Source: Vicinamibacteria bacterium
Lineage (GTDB): Bacteria; Acidobacteriota; Vicinamibacteria; Fen-336
Direction of reading: 5' to 3'
Length of the DNA: 64,000 nt
NCBI GenBank assembly: GCA_023701125.1
Contig: JAMPXO010000003.1
Location: 32,391-96,390 of the forward strand
Shown: positions 22,939 to 29,941 of the stretch, piece after piece
How positions within the stretch are numbered: position 1 is the stretch's first letter
Layout: every line of letters begins with the position of its first letter
Translations under genes and position numbers: made by a program
Notes under the pieces: model-generated
The model's database searches: none
The model's input: the letters and a program-made list of their open reading frames with translations, nothing else
What the model was told of the DNA's origin: nothing

Positions 22939-24165
22939 ATGCGTCCTGACGGGTCCTGGCACCCGGTCCTGCTGTGGATCACCGCCATTCTCCTGGCCCT
23001 CGGGTTCCACGTTCTGGCCCCGGTACTCGAAGTGCCTGACAGCGCGTCGTACCTCGCGCCGGCCCGTTCATGGGCGCGTGGCGACGGGCTGCTGGAGGCG
23101 GACGGATCGCCGATGTCCTACCGGATGCCGGCCTTCCCGCTGGTCGTCGGCATCGGGATCCGGCTCTCCGGCGATCCCGGGAACCTGGCCTCCGTCAGCC
23201 TGACGAACTTCGTCTGCCTGCTGCTCACCGCGCTGCTGACCCGACGCGCGATCCGGAGTCTCGGGGCGCCCGACCTCGCCGATCTCGGCGGGGCCGTGTG
23301 CCTCCTGTACCCGCCGCTGCTGACCTCCACGGCCCTCGTGCTGCAGGAGACCCTGCTCACGTTGTTCGTGACGCTGCTCTTCTCCTGCCTGGTGACGGCG
23401 ACGAAGGAGGACAGCTGGGGGCCAGCGGGCCTCGCCGGAGCCGCGCTCGGCCTCACGCTGCTGACCAAGCCCGTGATCGCTCCGACGGCGCCGCTGCTGC
23501 TGCTGCTGCTGGCTGCGACGCAGCGCAATGTTCGCAAGCGGGTCGCCGCGTTCTGCCTGCTGGCCGCCCTCGTGGTCGCGCCCTGGGCCATCCGCAACGC
23601 GGTGGTGCTGGGCCGCATCGAGCTGGCGCCGGGCAACACCGGGCACACGCTCCTGGGAGGCACCGTCTCCAACCAGATCGACGACTGGTACGGCTTCGAC
23701 GAGTACGAGAGCGCCGCTCGCGACTGGGCCGCGAGTGCTGCGGGCGCCGACACCCTCGACCGTCACCTGACCCGGGTCGCGCTCCACCGGATCGCGCAGG
23801 ACCCGGCCCGCTGGGCCCGGCTCTGCCTCGAGCGCGTGGGCCGCTTCATGCTTCCCTCGCGGGTCTTCTTCGTGCAGGCGGGGCTCTCGCGGACCGGCAG
23901 CTTCGGCCCCCTGTACGTGGTCGCCAGCCTGGTCAGCGTGGCGCTCTTCGCGCTCACGCTGTTCGTCGGCGGGCTGGCCTGGCGAAGGCGCGACCCCGCG
24001 CTGGCCGTCGGTCCGGTGCTCGTGTTGGGCCACGTGCTGGTCTACGCCGCCACCTACGTGAGCCCCCGCTACGCCCTGCCGATCACCCCGGCGCTGATCG
24101 CCTGCGCCGCCTGGGCCGCGCAAGTCGCTCACGAGTCGAGCCCGTATTTCTCGAGCCGGCGGTAG
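22939..24165 (+). CDS. polytopic membrane protein, GT-C fold (ArnT/PMT-like glycosyltransferase family 39/83-like)
   Basis: ATG at 22939 within ORF 22564..24165. Many transmembrane helices. An N-terminal periplasmic loop 'DSASYLAPARSWARGDG' resembles the ArnT/PMT motif region. Confidence 0.5.
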   Translation: MRPDGSWHPVLLWITAILLALGFHVLAPVLEVPDSASYLAPARSWARGDGLLEADGSPMSYRMPAFPLVVGIGIRLSGDPGNLASVSLTNFVCLLLTALLTRRAIRSLGAPDLADLGGAVCLLYPPLLTSTALVLQETLLTLFVTLLFSCLVTATKEDSWGPAGLAGAALGLTLLTKPVIAPTAPLLLLLLAATQRNVRKRVAAFCLLAALVVAPWAIRNAVVLGRIELAPGNTGHTLLGGTVSNQIDDWYGFDEYESAARDWAASAAGADTLDRHLTRVALHRIAQDPARWARLCLERVGRFMLPSRVFFVQAGLSRTGSFGPLYVVASLVSVALFALTLFVGGLAWRRRDPALAVGPVLVLGHVLVYAATYVSPRYALPITPALIACAAWAAQVAHESSPYFSSRR

Positions 24166-25502
24166 AGCGCCGCGCGGGACAGGCCGAGCGACTCGGCCGC
24201 GCGGGTCAGGTTGCCCGCGTGGTGTCGCAGTGCCTTGCGGACCATCCCGCTCTCGATCTCGTCCAGCGTCATCGCACCCACGGCCGGCAGCGGGTCGCGC
24301 TCGCGGGCCCGGGCGTCGAGCGCCGTCGCCGCCGCGAAGTCCTCCACGTCGAGGGCCGGCCGCGGCGTCATCAGCACGGTGCGCTCGAGCGCCTGGCCGA
24401 GCTGGCGCACGTTGCCGGGCCACGGCAGCGACTGCAGCCACGACACGGCCCGCGGCGTCAGCTGCAGTTCGTCGCGCCCGTAGGTCTGCCCCAGCCGGCG
24501 CAAGAAGTGGCGTGCGAGCAGGGCGATGTCCGCCGGCCGCGCGCGCAGCGGCGGCAGCCGCAGCACGATCAGGTTGACGCGGTAGAGCAGGTCCTCGCGA
24601 AAGGCCCCCTTCTCCACCTGCTCGGCCAGGTCGCGGTTGGTGGCCGAGATCACCCGCACGTCGACGCTGCGGGTCACGCTGGAGCCGAGCACCTCGTAGG
24701 TTCGGTCCTGCAACACCCGCAGCAGCTTGACCTGCGAGCCGGCATCGAGCTCGCCGATCTCGTCGAGGAAGATGGTGCCGCCGTCCGCCAGCTCGAAGCG
24801 GCCCTTGCGGTCCTGGCGGGCGTCGGTGAAGGCGCCGCGGACGTGGCCGAACATCTCGCTCTCGAACAGCGTGGCCGCGATGCCGCCGAGGTTGACCTTG
24901 ACGAAGGGCCCGGCTCGCCGCGCGGAGTTGCGGTGGATCGCCTCCGCGACCAGCTCCTTGCCGGTGCCGCTCTCCCCCGTCACCAGCACGGACGCGTCCG
25001 TCGCGGCCACCCGCCCCGCGATCTCGAGCACCCGCAGCAGGCCCGGGTCCTCGCCGACCAGCGGGCCGAAGTCCCACGACGCGTCGAGGTCCTCGCGGCT
25101 CGGCAGGTCGGAGGCCGCGGCGCTGCCGCCGGCCTGGGCGAGACCGAGCGCCGTGCGGATCGACAGCAGCAACTGCTCGCGGGTCCACGGCTTGGTGACG
25201 AAGTCGGAGGCGCCGCGCTTGATGCCCTCGACCGCGAGCGGGATCGAACCCCAGGCGGTCATCAGGATCACCGGCAGGCCGGGGCGCAACTCGCGGATGC
25301 GGGCAAGCAGCGCGAGGCCCTCCTCGCCCGAGGTCCGCCGCGAGAAGTTCATGTCCTGCAGGACGAGGGCAATGGGGCGCTCGGCAAGGGCGTGGAGTGC
25401 CTCCTCCGGCGAGGCCGACGACGTGGACGCGTGGCCGGCCTGTTTCAGCAGCAGGCTCAGCGACGCGGTCACGGACGGGTCGTCGTCGACGATCAGGATC
25501 AC
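24129..25502 (-). CDS. sigma-54-dependent Fis-family response regulator (NtrC-like enhancer-binding protein)
   Basis: Receiver domain 'MILIVDDD...D'. AAA+ domain 'GESGTGKE'. The 'GAFTDA' motif is the sigma-54 contact GAFTGA. C-terminal Fis helix-turn-helix. Confidence 0.85.
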   Translation of the reverse strand: MILIVDDDPSVTASLSLLLKQAGHASTSSASPEEALHALAERPIALVLQDMNFSRRTSGEEGLALLARIRELRPGLPVILMTAWGSIPLAVEGIKRGASDFVTKPWTREQLLLSIRTALGLAQAGGSAAASDLPSREDLDASWDFGPLVGEDPGLLRVLEIAGRVAATDASVLVTGESGTGKELVAEAIHRNSARRAGPFVKVNLGGIAATLFESEMFGHVRGAFTDARQDRKGRFELADGGTIFLDEIGELDAGSQVKLLRVLQDRTYEVLGSSVTRSVDVRVISATNRDLAEQVEKGAFREDLLYRVNLIVLRLPPLRARPADIALLARHFLRRLGQTYGRDELQLTPRAVSWLQSLPWPGNVRQLGQALERTVLMTPRPALDVEDFAAATALDARARERDPLPAVGAMTLDEIESGMVRKALRHHAGNLTRAAESLGLSRAALYRRLEKYGLDS

Positions 25503-25529
25503 GCGCGCTCCGGGGGCCAGGCCTGCGGG

Positions 25530-28657: not shown

Positions 28658-29902
28658 TCAGCGCAGCCGCAACCGGCGCGCGGTCCCGAAGGCGCTCGTG
28701 TCGGAGACGAGCACCTCCTCCCCCTCCTGCAGTCCTTCGAGCACCTCGATGTGCTCGTAGCTCGCGACGCCCAGCCGCACGCTGCGGCGGCGGGCTTCCC
28801 CGCCTTCGACCACGAACACGTCCTGCACGCCGAGCCCGGTCAGGCCCGGACCGCGCGCGACCCGCAGCACGCCGGCTCGCTGCTCGGTGAGCACCTCGAC
28901 GTCGACCCGCAGATTCGGCCGCAGCGCCGCGTCGCTGGCGTCCTCCAGGGCCACCCGGAAGCTGACCGCCCCGCCCTGCACCGAGGGCTCGACCGCGGCC
29001 ACCGTGCCGGGCAGCGCCCGCTCGCCGAGCCGCACGCGGACGGGCATCCCGGGCCGGAGGACGTTCGCGTGCACGTCCGACAACGTGGCCTGCACGCGGA
29101 ACCGGGTCAGGTCGGCGACCCGGGCCAGCACGTCGCCCGGCCGCACCGTGGAGCCCTCGTCGGTGATCACGAACGTCAGCACCCCCGCCCGCTCGGCGCG
29201 GGCGGTCGCCCGCTGCAGCGTCCGCCACGCCTCGGCCCGCTCCTGGCGCAGGGTGCCGCCCTCGAGCGCGATCTGGCGCAGCCGGGCCGCGGTGCTGGCC
29301 GCCGCGTTCTTCTGCTCGAACTCGAGCTGCGCCACCTCGATCCGGGCCTGGGCGGTCGCCAGCTCGCTCTGCTGCAGCACTTCTTCCGCGATCAGGCCCT
29401 CGGCGTGCAGCTTGCGGTTGCGGGAGAGCTGGGATTCCAGGCTGGCGAGCTGCAGGCCGCGCACGTTGCGCCGGGCCTCGAGGTCGGACTGGGTGCGCTC
29501 GAGGGCCAGTCGCTCGCGCTCCTCGTCGGTCTCGCGCAGCGAAATCTGCTGGTCGAGCCGCTCCACCGCCAGCCGCGCCGGGGCCACGTCCAGTTCCAGG
29601 ATCGGCTCGCCCGCCGCGAGGGTCGCGCCCGGGCGCTTCAGGACGCGGAGCACACGCGCCTCGACAGGGCTGGTCAGGGCCTGCTCCGACTCGGGCAGCA
29701 CCGTCCCGCTGGCGGAGAGCGAGGCCGCGAGATCGCCACGCTCCACCCGCGCGAGCCGGACGCGGTCGCGGGCGATACTCGGTCCGAACCAGTACGGAAA
29801 CGCGAACCAGGCGGTCAGGCTGGCCACGACCACAGCCGCTGCGAGGCGGATGCGGCGGCGGCGCTGGTCAGCGACGAATTCGGCGTCGAGGGGGCGGTCC
29901 AT
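28658..29902 (-). CDS. HlyD/MacA-family periplasmic adaptor (membrane fusion protein)
   Basis: ATG at 29902 ('MDRPLDAEF') within ORF 28658..29965. Transmembrane anchor, long coiled-coil, beta-barrel and lipoyl-like domains. Confidence 0.75.
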   Translation of the reverse strand: MDRPLDAEFVADQRRRRIRLAAAVVVASLTAWFAFPYWFGPSIARDRVRLARVERGDLAASLSASGTVLPESEQALTSPVEARVLRVLKRPGATLAAGEPILELDVAPARLAVERLDQQISLRETDEERERLALERTQSDLEARRNVRGLQLASLESQLSRNRKLHAEGLIAEEVLQQSELATAQARIEVAQLEFEQKNAAASTAARLRQIALEGGTLRQERAEAWRTLQRATARAERAGVLTFVITDEGSTVRPGDVLARVADLTRFRVQATLSDVHANVLRPGMPVRVRLGERALPGTVAAVEPSVQGGAVSFRVALEDASDAALRPNLRVDVEVLTEQRAGVLRVARGPGLTGLGVQDVFVVEGGEARRRSVRLGVASYEHIEVLEGLQEGEEVLVSDTSAFGTARRLRLR

Positions 29903-29923
29903 GTCGGTTCCGAGCCGACGTAG

Positions 29924-29941
29924 AGCAACCGCGATGCCAGC
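29924..29941 (-). promoter_or_regulatory. candidate sigma-54 (-24/-12) promoter for the adaptor-ABC-FtsX-FtsX(-EBP) operon
   Basis: The minus strand reads 'TGGCATCGCGGTTGCT', which matches TGGCAC-N5-TTGCW with exact GG-N10-GC spacing. It lies about 25 nt upstream of the adaptor ATG. Confidence 0.45.

What the first reader, a model, noticed from the sequence alone, without database searches (positions are those of the whole stretch)
24129..29941. Sigma-54-type promoter in front of a HlyD-ABC-FtsX-FtsX operon that ends in a sigma-54 activator gene
About 25 nt upstream of the adaptor start, the minus strand reads 'TGGCATCGCGGTTGCT'. This is a near-perfect -24/-12 element with exact spacing. The operon is adaptor, then ATPase, then two FtsX permeases. 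Three of its junctions overlap, by 7 nt (ATPase/permease), 4 nt (ATGA, between the two permeases) and about 37 nt at the convergent end with the GT-C gene. It is followed 27 nt later on the same strand by an NtrC-type enhancer-binding protein with the GAFTGA-like 'GAFTDA' motif. rpoN itself lies in this window, and a histidine kinase sits 1.2 kb further on. Together these suggest an autoregulated sigma-54 circuit controlling a tripartite efflux or export system with two distinct FtsX permeases, so the pump would be a heteromer. The substrate is unknown.
Basis: partly seen in the sequence, partly recalled or inferred. Interest (0 to 1): 0.55.

Follow-up and report, generated by a model that had tools for sequence, protein, structure and literature searches.

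The report
Sigma-54 switch controlling an Acidobacterial efflux pump
A soil bacterium of the Acidobacteriota carries a self-contained gene module, a MacB-type export pump plus its own sensor and activator, switched on from a sigma-54 promoter with two activator binding sites; the same layout recurs across the phylum, so it is real, but it is a variant of known regulation, not a new kind.

Summary
TGGCATCGCGGTTGCT (29939..29924, minus strand) is the only exact TGGCA-N6-TTGCW in the window. It lies 21 nt upstream of the adaptor ATG. I fetched 80 Acidobacteriota genome loci with adaptor homologs (39-84% identity). In 63 of 76 usable loci a -24/-12 element sits at the same place, about 65-fold above background. 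Nearly all also carry two tandem 16-bp palindromes, YGTNCR-N4-YGNACR, spaced 20-22 bp apart upstream of the promoter. In the window these lie at 30016..30001 and 29994..29979. Their distance to the -24 element clusters at roughly 10-11-bp intervals, which suggests helical phasing. The gene order adaptor, ATPase, FtsX1, FtsX2, NtrC-type activator, histidine kinase is conserved, and no other neighbour is. The activator's GAFTDA loop is family-wide (52 of 56). The kinase has two membrane helices with almost no external loop. The two permeases are highly divergent and translationally coupled, which fits a heterodimer. They match the two halves of the Acidobacterial ADOP permease. In this window a glycosyltransferase gene has been inserted between activator and kinase. 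Substrate, signal and actual RpoN dependence remain untested. Verdict: a new, phylum-wide variant of two-component-regulated MacB-type pumps.

The parts
30001..30016 (-). Distal upstream activating sequence, CGTCCGGTTCCGGACG. It is a perfect 16-bp palindrome of the type YGTNCR-N4-YGNACR, centred about 95 nt upstream of the predicted transcription start.
   Evidence: The equivalent site is present in nearly all related loci.
29979..29994 (-). Proximal upstream activating sequence, CGTCCGAAGGCGCACG. Its centre is 22 bp from the distal site and about 73 nt upstream of the predicted start.
   Evidence: The tandem spacing is 20-22 bp in 64 loci.
29940..29978 (-). Spacer between the binding sites and the promoter. 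It is relatively A/T-rich (GAATCAG...GAAACAGGGGTTTC). Across loci, A/T tracts recur at about -54, -44 and -34, so this may be a bend or an IHF-type site (inferred).
   Evidence: Position-specific base counts in 68 loci; sequences.
29924..29939 (-). Sigma-54 promoter, -24/-12 element TGGCATCGCGGTTGCT.
   Evidence: Conserved at this position in 63 of 76 loci.
29903..29913 (-). Predicted 11-nt leader. The transcription start is inferred at about 29913, taking the C of the GC dinucleotide as -12. There is no strong Shine-Dalgarno sequence.
   Evidence: Inference from the sequence. Not measured.
28658..29902 (-). Periplasmic adaptor (membrane-fusion protein), 414 aa, with an N-terminal membrane anchor.
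   Evidence: Pfam HlyD_3 and HlyD_D23. Closest solved chains are MacA and EmrA. Most of the 120 listed homologs are also 414 aa.
27976..28644 (-). ABC ATPase, with Walker A, signature, Walker B and H-loop motifs intact.
26738..27982 (-). Permease FtsX1 (MacB_PCD plus FtsX domains). It matches the N-terminal half of ADOP.
25530..26741 (-). Permease FtsX2 (MacB_PCD plus FtsX domains). It matches the C-terminal half of ADOP. Its start overlaps the FtsX1 stop as ATGA.
24129..25502 (-). NtrC-family response regulator and enhancer-binding protein (REC, AAA+, HTH_8). It has the GAFTDA loop and a predicted phospho-acceptor at Asp50.
22939..24165 (+). GT-C (PMT_2) glycosyltransferase gene inserted between the activator and the kinase. 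It is not part of the conserved module.
   Evidence: Absent at this position in L001 and L002, and in most other loci the kinase follows the activator within about 150 nt.
21592..22905 (-). Cognate histidine kinase. It has two membrane helices with a loop of about 4 residues, then HAMP, PAS and the kinase core.
   Evidence: Synteny.
61316..62752 (-). rpoN (sigma-54), in an lptA...rpoN-hprK-ptsI neighbourhood.

Best explanation
The region is a self-contained six-gene module: adaptor, ABC ATPase, two different FtsX/MacB-type permeases, an NtrC-type activator and its histidine kinase. It is transcribed from a sigma-54 (-24/-12) promoter at 29939..29924.

Proposed mechanism:
1. The phosphorylated activator binds two tandem 16-bp palindromes centred about 73 and 95 nt upstream of the start.
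2. The bound activator contacts the sigma-54 holoenzyme across a short, probably bent, spacer and opens the promoter.
3. The activator gene lies 27 nt after the last permease gene with no terminator between them, so induction also raises activator levels (positive autoregulation).
4. The products would form a MacAB-like tripartite pump: a heterodimeric FtsX1/FtsX2 permease, two copies of the ATPase and a hexameric adaptor that docks an outer-membrane channel encoded elsewhere.
5. The pump would expel a periplasmic or membrane-located compound.

Shown here:
- The motifs, their conservation, spacing and position.
- The gene order.
- The protein domains.

Inferred:
- That this activator binds these palindromes.
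- Co-transcription of the genes.
- The stoichiometry of the pump.
- The direction of transport.
- The substrate. My best guess is an envelope-acting toxic compound such as an antimicrobial peptide or amphiphile. This rests on analogy only and has low confidence.
For: Promoter:
- The motif is unique in the window.
- A sigma-54 motif scoring 17 or more lies in the -100..-16 window of 63 of 76 loci. The density is 9.75 per kb there against 0.15 per kb elsewhere.
- T-15, T-14, G-13 and C-12 are near-invariant in the 68 loci kept for a motif score of 16.5 or more; the two T positions are only partly forced by that selection.

Binding sites:
- 134 of 157 full-score palindromes in 1.09 Mb of loci lie within 200 nt upstream of the adaptor start.
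- They occur as pairs spaced 20-22 bp apart in 64 loci.
- The window holds exactly one such pair within two mismatches, against 0.02 expected.
- The distance from the proximal site to the -24 element clusters near 39, 49, 59, 71 and 82 bp. The Rayleigh test gives p = 1.5e-8 at a 10.5-bp period, and p = 0.011 when each distance class is counted once.

Module:
- The gene order is conserved, with the activator at 60-88% and the kinase at 43-81% identity.
- 46 of 56 loci with adequate flanks have the promoter, the tandem sites and an adjacent activator.
- No other neighbour is conserved.

Machinery:
- rpoN is present.
- GAFTDA occurs in 52 of 56 orthologs. The same variant is known in the working sigma-54 activator DVU2106 (PMC4641369).

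Transcription unit:
- No sigma-70 consensus and no credible internal terminator were found.

Pump:
- Domains.
- Closest solved relatives are MacB, Spr0695, YknZ, MacA and EmrA.
- ATPase motifs are intact.
- FtsX1 and FtsX2 share only 31% identity over 75 residues and are joined by ATGA.
Against: - No transcription start, expression or binding data exist for any member of the module.
- The palindrome and promoter scoring schemes were designed after looking at these same loci. Only the background comparison is independent of that.
- The loci are related genomes, so the counts are not independent events.
- The predicted leader is only 11 nt and lacks a good Shine-Dalgarno sequence.
- No outer-membrane factor gene lies in the window or beside the module.
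- In this genome the kinase is cut off from the operon by an oppositely oriented gene, so at least the kinase is not autoregulated here.
- A basal promoter for the activator was not found.
Confidence: 0.8

Rival explanations
1. The -24/-12 match is a chance occurrence in GC-rich DNA. The operon is read from an ordinary sigma-70-type promoter, or by read-through from the upstream CDP-alcohol phosphatidyltransferase gene.
For: - Loose TGGC-N8-TGCW matches are frequent in coding sequence (19 in the window).
- With one mismatch allowed, the stricter pattern is not enriched.
- The upstream gene is on the same strand and ends only 127 nt away.
Against: - The element is conserved at the same position in 63 of 76 loci whose intergenic DNA is otherwise unalignable and whose upstream genes differ.
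- No sigma-70 consensus was found in 9.5 kb.
- A dedicated activator and paired binding sites co-occur with the element.
Confidence: 0.04
2. The two palindromes are not activator binding sites. They are terminator hairpins for the upstream gene, or sites for an unrelated regulator.
For: - The distal palindrome starts 14 nt after the upstream stop codon. It can form a GC-rich hairpin, GGCCGTCCGG-TT-CCGGACGGCC.
- No binding data exist.
Against: - The sequence is conserved (TGT/CGT ... ACA/ACG arms), not merely the ability to pair.
- There are always two copies, 20-22 bp apart.
- Their distance to the -24 element appears phased.
- The sites are present whatever gene lies upstream.
- No T-tract follows the hairpin.
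- The half-site layout is the TGT-N10-ACA type used by Fis-type HTH activators such as NifA (my own knowledge).
Confidence: 0.07
3. The regulation is the same, but the transporter is not a detoxifying efflux pump. It would export a cell-made envelope component (lipoprotein, glycolipid or lipid), as LolCDE and DevBCA do, or a secreted peptide.
For: - The two-permease, one-ATPase layout is otherwise known from LolCDE (PMC5985334).
- The ATPase scores highest against the darobactin exporter DarD, then LolD, and also matches DevA.
- Here and in the two closest relatives, a PIP-synthase-like CDP-alcohol phosphatidyltransferase gene lies immediately upstream. Further upstream in the window lie lipid-kinase and aminotransferase genes.
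Against: - FtsX1 and FtsX2 give no LolC/E hit, and all ATPase matches fall below their curated cut-offs.
- An adaptor is present, which Lol systems lack.
- The neighbouring lipid genes are not conserved across loci.
- Inducible control by a two-component system is more typical of stress pumps.
Confidence: 0.2
4. The kinase does not sense the stimulus itself. As in Bce-type modules of Firmicutes, it reads the activity of the FtsX-type transporter through membrane contacts.
For: - The kinase has two membrane helices joined by only 3-6 residues in nearly all orthologs aligned.
- It always accompanies the transporter.
- TM1 carries an invariant His and TM2 an invariant Glu.
- The BceS/BceB precedent is summarised in PMC5985334.
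Against: - The kinase also has cytoplasmic HAMP and PAS domains that could sense on their own.
- The permeases are not BceB-type.
- No interaction data exist.
- In this genome the kinase gene has been uncoupled from the operon.
Confidence: 0.3

Closest known systems
MacAB-TolC tripartite efflux pump (E. coli, Salmonella)
   Same: - An adaptor with a long hairpin, and permeases of the MacB fold (MacB_PCD plus FtsX domains).
- The closest solved chains are MacB and MacA.
- Expression of MacAB is under two-component control by PhoPQ (PMC5985334).
   Different: - MacB is a homodimer with a fused ATPase. Here the ATPase is a separate protein and there are two divergent permeases.
- The regulator here is an NtrC-type sigma-54 activator encoded inside the operon, not an OmpR-type regulator encoded elsewhere.
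- No TolC-type gene is linked.
- Scores are far below the MacB equivalog cut-off (71 and 38 bits against 966).
LolCDE lipoprotein-release complex
   Same: One ATPase with two different 4-TM MacB-type permeases acting as a heterodimer (PMC5985334).
   Different: - Lol systems have no adaptor and are housekeeping.
- FtsX1 and FtsX2 do not hit the lolCE model.
- The LolD match (240.7 bits) is below its cut-off of 307.75.
BceAB-BceRS antimicrobial-peptide sensing and detoxification modules (Firmicutes)
   Same: An FtsX-type ABC transporter genetically coupled to a two-component system whose kinase has two membrane helices and no extracellular sensor domain (PMC5985334).
   Different: - The Bce permease is a single 10-TM protein, the regulator is OmpR-type and the promoter is sigma-70-type.
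- Here the cell is diderm, and there is an adaptor, two 4-TM-type permeases, HAMP and PAS domains in the kinase, and sigma-54 output.
ADOP family duplicated permease (TIGR03434, Acidobacteria)
   Same: - FtsX1 aligns to ADOP positions 4-403 and FtsX2 to positions 413-803. These are the best NCBIfam hits for both proteins (142 and 168 bits).
- The other FtsX proteins in the window score only 42-58 bits.
   Different: - ADOP is one polypeptide of about 800 aa that typically lacks an adjacent ATPase gene (my own knowledge of the family description).
- Here the two halves are separate genes sitting with an ATPase and an adaptor.
- Scores are far below the cut-off of 622.
NtrC/AtoC/ZraR-type response-regulator activators, and the NifA-type TGT-N10-ACA upstream activating sequence
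   Same: - The REC, AAA+ and HTH_8 architecture.
- Tandem palindromic sites about 70-100 nt upstream of a -24/-12 promoter.
- The outer triplets of the palindrome read TGT...ACA or CGT...ACG.
   Different: - No equivalog cut-off is reached (AtoC 395 bits against 714; NtrC 377 against 559), so this is a separate orthologous group.
- The GAFTDA loop replaces GAFTGA throughout the family.
In-silico link between sigma-54 promoters and FtsX-type ABC systems (COG0577/COG1136), PLoS One 2025 (PMC12316311)
   Same: Predicted sigma-54 promoters in front of FtsX-like permease and ATPase genes.
   Different: - That study reports statistical enrichment in Gammaproteobacteria, Opitutia and Bacteroidia.
- It contains no mention of Acidobacteria.
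- The passages I read do not define an activator, binding sites or a module.

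Membership tests
Sigma-54 (-24/-12) promoter with enhancer | GG and GC dinucleotides with fixed spacing, matching TGGCAC-N5-TTGCW | tested here: met
   TGGCATCGCGGTTGCT at 29939..29924
Sigma-54 (-24/-12) promoter with enhancer | Element conserved at the same position upstream of orthologous genes | tested here: met
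   63 of 76 loci, about 65-fold above background
Sigma-54 (-24/-12) promoter with enhancer | rpoN present in the genome | tested here: met
   61316-62752 (-), 450.9 bits against a cut-off of 277.35
Sigma-54 (-24/-12) promoter with enhancer | Cognate AAA+ activator with a GAFTGA-type loop | tested here: met
   Sigma54_activat 219.6 bits. The loop is GAFTDA, in 52 of 56 orthologs. The variant is known in a working activator.
Sigma-54 (-24/-12) promoter with enhancer | Upstream activator binding sites | tested here: met
   Tandem palindromes, 20-22 bp apart, conserved. Binding itself was not tested.
Sigma-54 (-24/-12) promoter with enhancer | Transcription start about 12 nt after the GC dinucleotide, and dependence on RpoN and on ATP hydrolysis by the activator | not testable with these tools
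   Needs 5'-end mapping and mutants
MacB-type (type VII ABC) tripartite pump | Permease with an N-terminal membrane helix, a MacB periplasmic core domain and an FtsX C-terminal domain | tested here: met
   Both permeases have both domains. Closest solved chains are MacB and Spr0695.
MacB-type (type VII ABC) tripartite pump | ABC ATPase with intact catalytic motifs | tested here: met
   GPSGCGKS, LSGGQQQR, ILLADEPT, VTHD
MacB-type (type VII ABC) tripartite pump | Periplasmic adaptor of the HlyD/MacA type | tested here: met
   HlyD_3 and HlyD_D23; solved relatives MacA and EmrA
MacB-type (type VII ABC) tripartite pump | Outer-membrane factor (TolC type) | tested here: inconclusive
   None was found in the window ORFs scanned, and none is conserved beside the module. 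The gene can be unlinked, as tolC is in E. coli.
MacB sensu stricto (NF007826) | ATPase fused to the permease, homodimer, score above the cut-off | tested here: not met
   Separate ATPase, two permeases, 71 and 38 bits against 966
LolCDE | LolC/LolE and LolD equivalog matches, and no adaptor | tested here: not met
   No lolCE hit for either permease. LolD scores 240.7 against 307.75. An adaptor is present.
Bce-type sensing/detoxification module | Kinase with two membrane helices and a minimal extracellular loop | tested here: met
   Loop of about 4 residues here and 3-6 in most orthologs
Bce-type sensing/detoxification module | BceB-type 10-TM permease and OmpR-type regulator | tested here: not met
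   Two permeases of about 400 aa, and an NtrC-type regulator
Bce-type sensing/detoxification module | Signalling requires the active transporter | not testable with these tools
   Needs genetics and interaction assays
ADOP (TIGR03434) | Single duplicated polypeptide of about 800 aa scoring above the cut-off, without an adjacent ATPase | tested here: not met
   Two genes, 142 and 168 bits against 622.3. An ATPase and an adaptor are adjacent.
NtrC-family response regulator | REC, sigma-54 AAA+ and HTH_8 (Fis-type) domains | tested here: met
   No named equivalog reaches its cut-off.

The most novel reading that the evidence does not exclude
The module is a diderm, sigma-54-output counterpart of Bce-type sensing by transporter activity. 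A kinase with no external sensor, but with an invariant His and Glu inside its two membrane helices, would read the work of a heterodimeric MacB-type pump and feed back on the pump's own promoter. The FtsX1/FtsX2 pair would be the unfused form of the ADOP permeases. That would give the first clue to which ATPase and adaptor the many orphan ADOP proteins of Acidobacteria work with.
Probability: 0.22. Interest if true: 0.65.

Novelty: new variant of a known kind. Interest (0 to 1): 0.42.

Why it matters
Acidobacteriota are among the most abundant soil bacteria, yet almost nothing is known about their gene regulation. This work gives a concrete prediction for one regulatory circuit that appears throughout the phylum: a sigma-54 promoter, a defined 16-bp activator site in two copies, a dedicated activator and kinase, and their single local target. 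That is directly testable in the few cultivated members.

The module also offers three further things:
- An adaptor-linked MacB-type pump with two different permeases. I know of no studied example (own knowledge).
- A kinase without a sensor domain that always travels with the pump.
- A plausible evolutionary link to the large and unexplained ADOP permease family.

None of this overturns current understanding. The link between sigma-54 and FtsX-type transporters has already been noted statistically in other phyla (PMC12316311).

Tried and rejected
- Rfam scan of the whole window: no RNA family hit, so the intergenic region holds no known riboswitch or small RNA.
- Sigma-70 promoter and terminator scan of 21400-30900: no promoter match, and only weak terminator-like hits inside coding sequence.
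- Other sigma-54 candidates in the window: the one-mismatch hit at 39569 lies inside a membrane-protein ORF and was rejected.
- Other palindromes in the window: single full-score sites at 9624 and 26542 lie inside coding sequence and are unpaired, so they are consistent with chance (1.2 expected).
- A conserved neighbour that would hint at the substrate, or a TolC gene: no flanking family occurs in more than 11 loci.
- A link to the upstream lipid genes: the adjacent CDP-alcohol phosphatidyltransferase is shared only with the two closest relatives.
- GAFTDA as a sign of a dead activator: rejected, because it is family-wide and known in a working activator.
- Literature searches for this module in Acidobacteria: nothing specific found.
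- I did not run structure prediction or further large protein searches, because they would not have changed the verdict.
- Presence of the module outside Acidobacteriota could not be assessed properly. Only the best 80 of 162 genome hits were returned. A few carry non-Acidobacterial labels that may be binning or naming errors.

Full report
**What is there.** The window has 71% G+C. Judged by its closest relatives, it comes from a member of the Acidobacteriota, class Vicinamibacteria: the adaptor is 83-84% identical to those of two such metagenome-assembled genomes.

The minus strand between 29902 and 24129 carries five tightly packed genes (Pfam):
- a HlyD-type adaptor, 28658-29902;
- an ABC ATPase with all catalytic motifs, 27976-28644;
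- an FtsX/MacB-periplasmic-domain permease, 26738-27982;
- a second such permease, 25530-26741;
- a response regulator with receiver, sigma-54-interaction AAA+ and Fis-type HTH domains, 24129-25502.

There is a 13-nt gap with GGAGG, a GTGCTGA overlap, an ATGA overlap, and a 27-nt gap with GGAG before the regulator. The regulator carries GAFTDA. rpoN is present at 61316-62752. The motif TGGCATCGCGGTTGCT lies at 29939..29924, and its 3' end is 21 nt upstream of the adaptor ATG. Most of the 120 listed database homologs are also 414 aa long and begin M-D-R, which supports that start codon.

**Is the motif more than chance?** Within the window alone the evidence is modest. The exact pattern TGGCA-N6-TTGCW occurs once against 0.08 expected. 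Looser versions are frequent in coding sequence.

The decisive evidence is comparative. I fetched 80 genome loci encoding adaptor homologs of 39-84% identity. Almost all are labelled Acidobacteriota: Vicinamibacteria, Blastocatellia, Holophagales and Terriglobia. In 63 of 76 loci with enough upstream sequence, a -24/-12 element scoring at least 17 of 20.9 lies 16-100 nt upstream of the adaptor start. The density there is 9.75 per kb against 0.15 per kb in the rest of 1.09 Mb, both strands. The surrounding intergenic DNA is otherwise unalignable. Most loci that failed the threshold still carry GG-N10-GC variants such as CGGCACG-N4-TTGC or TGGTAC-N5-TTGC.

**The enhancer.** Nearly every locus has two 16-bp palindromes of the form YGTNCR-N4-YGNACR, with centres 20-22 bp apart (64 loci), upstream of the -24 element. 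Of 157 full-score matches in all loci, 134 lie within 200 nt upstream of the adaptor start.

In the window the sites are CGTCCGGTTCCGGACG (30016..30001) and CGTCCGAAGGCGCACG (29994..29979). This is the only tandem pair in 64 kb within two mismatches, against 0.02 expected. The distance from the proximal site to the -24 element clusters at about 39, 49, 59, 71 and 82 bp. That is periodic at 10.5-11 bp: the Rayleigh test gives p = 1.5e-8, and p = 0.011 when each distance class is counted once. Periodicity of this kind is expected if the activator must sit on one face of the helix. Between the sites and the promoter, A/T-rich tracts recur at about -54, -44 and -34. This suggests a bend or an IHF-type site, which is an inference.

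A caveat applies. I derived the palindrome pattern from these same loci, and the loci are phylogenetically related. The enrichment over background is nevertheless several hundred-fold.

**The module.** The gene order adaptor, ATPase, FtsX1, FtsX2, activator, kinase is kept in essentially all loci long enough to show it. Of 56 loci with adequate flanks, 46 have the promoter, the tandem sites and an adjacent activator together. No other flanking gene family is shared by more than 11 loci, and no outer-membrane channel gene is linked. The module is therefore self-contained.

In this window the kinase (21592-22905) is separated from the activator by a 1.2-kb insertion. The insertion carries a GT-C/PMT_2 glycosyltransferase gene on the other strand, with a likely start at 22939. 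In the two closest relatives the kinase follows the activator after 8 nt.

**The parts in more detail.**
- *Activator.* It belongs to the NtrC family but reaches no named equivalog cut-off. GAFTDA is found in 52 of 56 orthologs. The same variant occurs in the experimentally studied sigma-54 activator DVU2106 of Desulfovibrio vulgaris (PMC4641369). It is a signature of the family, not a defect.
- *Kinase.* It has two membrane helices joined by about four residues, followed by HAMP, PAS and the catalytic core. The short loop (one ortholog, L003, has a longer one), an invariant His in helix 1 and an invariant Glu in helix 2 are conserved across the 40 sequences aligned. It therefore has no periplasmic sensor domain.
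- *Permeases.* The two share only 31% identity over 75 residues, and each forms its own orthologous group. Together with the ATGA overlap, this argues for a 1:1 heterodimer. I know this arrangement only from LolCDE among MacB-type transporters (PMC5985334).
- *Best family matches.* FtsX1 matches the N-terminal half and FtsX2 the C-terminal half of the Acidobacterial ADOP duplicated permease, at 142 and 168 bits. Two other FtsX genes in the window score only 42-58 bits.
- *Closest solved structures.* These are MacB, Spr0695 and YknZ for the permeases, and MacA and EmrA for the adaptor.

**How it most likely works.**
- Shown: the motifs, their conservation and geometry, the gene order and the domains.
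- Inferred: the phosphorylated activator binds the two palindromes and contacts sigma-54 holoenzyme at the -24/-12 element. It then drives one transcript through the pump genes and its own gene, since no terminator or sigma-70 match was found. That gives positive feedback.
- Inferred: the pump would be a MacAB-like tripartite machine using an unlinked outer-membrane channel. It would remove a periplasmic or membrane-located compound.
- The substrate and the signal are unknown. By analogy with MacAB under PhoPQ control and with BceAB-BceRS (PMC5985334), an envelope-acting toxic compound is my best guess, with low confidence.
- Whether the sensor-less kinase reads the transporter, as BceS does, or senses through its PAS domain or its membrane His/Glu pair cannot be decided here.

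**Comparison with what is known.** A 2025 in-silico survey reported enrichment of predicted sigma-54 promoters at FtsX-type permease and ATPase genes in Gammaproteobacteria, Opitutia and Bacteroidia. It called this the first such link (PMC12316311). It contains no mention of Acidobacteria, and the passages I read do not define an activator, binding sites or a module. My searches found no description of this Acidobacterial module.

The module is not MacB proper, not LolCDE, not a Bce module and not ADOP. In each case at least one defining feature was tested and not met (see the membership table). It works like a two-component-regulated MacB-type pump. I therefore class it as a new variant of a known kind: well supported, useful for a poorly studied phylum, and not surprising in principle.

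**Limits.** There are no experimental data of any kind. All related loci are metagenome-assembled genomes. Only the best 80 of 162 genome hits were inspected. The taxonomic range beyond Acidobacteriota is not established.

Noticed in passing
window 22906-24165 (+), between the activator (24129-25502) and the kinase (21592-22905): A GT-C/PMT_2 glycosyltransferase gene, with a likely ATG at 22939, is inserted on the opposite strand between the activator and its cognate kinase. Its start lies only about 33 nt from the kinase start, and the two genes diverge. In the closest relatives (L001, L002) activator and kinase are 8 nt apart. How the kinase is transcribed here is unclear.
   Followed up: partly
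window 25530-27982 (-), the FtsX1 and FtsX2 genes: FtsX1 aligns to the N-terminal half (positions 4-403) and FtsX2 to the C-terminal half (413-803) of the ADOP duplicated permease model TIGR03434. Other FtsX genes in the window match it much more weakly. The adjacent, ATGA-overlapping pair looks like the unfused form of ADOP.
   Followed up: partly
L003, L004, L014, L017, L022, L026, L037, L044, L048, L069, L073 and others: the 27-30 nt between the -24 T and the adaptor start codon: In 19 of 75 loci the start codon lies only 27-30 nt after the T of TGGC. The predicted sigma-54 transcript would then have a leader of about 1-4 nt and be effectively leaderless. Loci with longer leaders mostly carry a GGAGG-like Shine-Dalgarno sequence. 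The window itself has a predicted 11-nt leader without a good Shine-Dalgarno sequence.
   Followed up: partly
L027 12666-13232 (+); L005 12673-13230 (+); similar gaps of about 650 nt in other Blastocatellia-type loci: These loci carry an extra gene between FtsX2 and the activator. It encodes a protein of about 185 aa with an N-terminal zinc-ribbon motif (CPxCG...CRSCGFRLDGVAQLLA) and hydrophobic segments. It has no NCBIfam match.
   Followed up: partly
window 22786-22854 (kinase residues 18-40): The kinase has an invariant His (residue 18) in membrane helix 1 and an invariant Glu (residue 40) in helix 2 across the 40 sequences aligned. Polar residues buried in the membrane may be the sensing or docking site.
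   Followed up: partly
window 30030-35583 (-): Directly upstream lie four genes: a CDP-alcohol phosphatidyltransferase resembling phosphatidylinositol-phosphate synthases, a 602-aa ORF with no Pfam match, a DAGK/YegS-type lipid kinase, and a class I/II aminotransferase. Together they may form an inositol-lipid or sphingolipid cluster. The first gene is also adjacent in L001 and L002 but not in more distant loci.
   Followed up: no
window 9330-11274 (-) and 36437-37624 (+): There are further FtsX/MacB_PCD permease genes, one of them with its own ABC ATPase. Neither has an adaptor, a sigma-54 motif or tandem palindromes. They match the LolC/E and LolD models only weakly, so the Lol system of this organism is not obvious.
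   Followed up: partly
window 56932-63999 (-): rpoN sits in the classical neighbourhood: an LptA-like gene, then rpoN, HPr kinase and PTS enzyme I further downstream. This shows that the rpoN-PTS(Ntr)-type gene linkage extends to this Acidobacterial lineage.
   Followed up: no
loci L007, L008, L011, L013, L019, L033, L042, L051 (record titles): Several metagenome-assembled genomes that carry this typically Acidobacterial module are labelled Heliomicrobium, Heliobacteriaceae or Bifidobacteriaceae in their public records. These are probably naming or binning errors.
   Followed up: no
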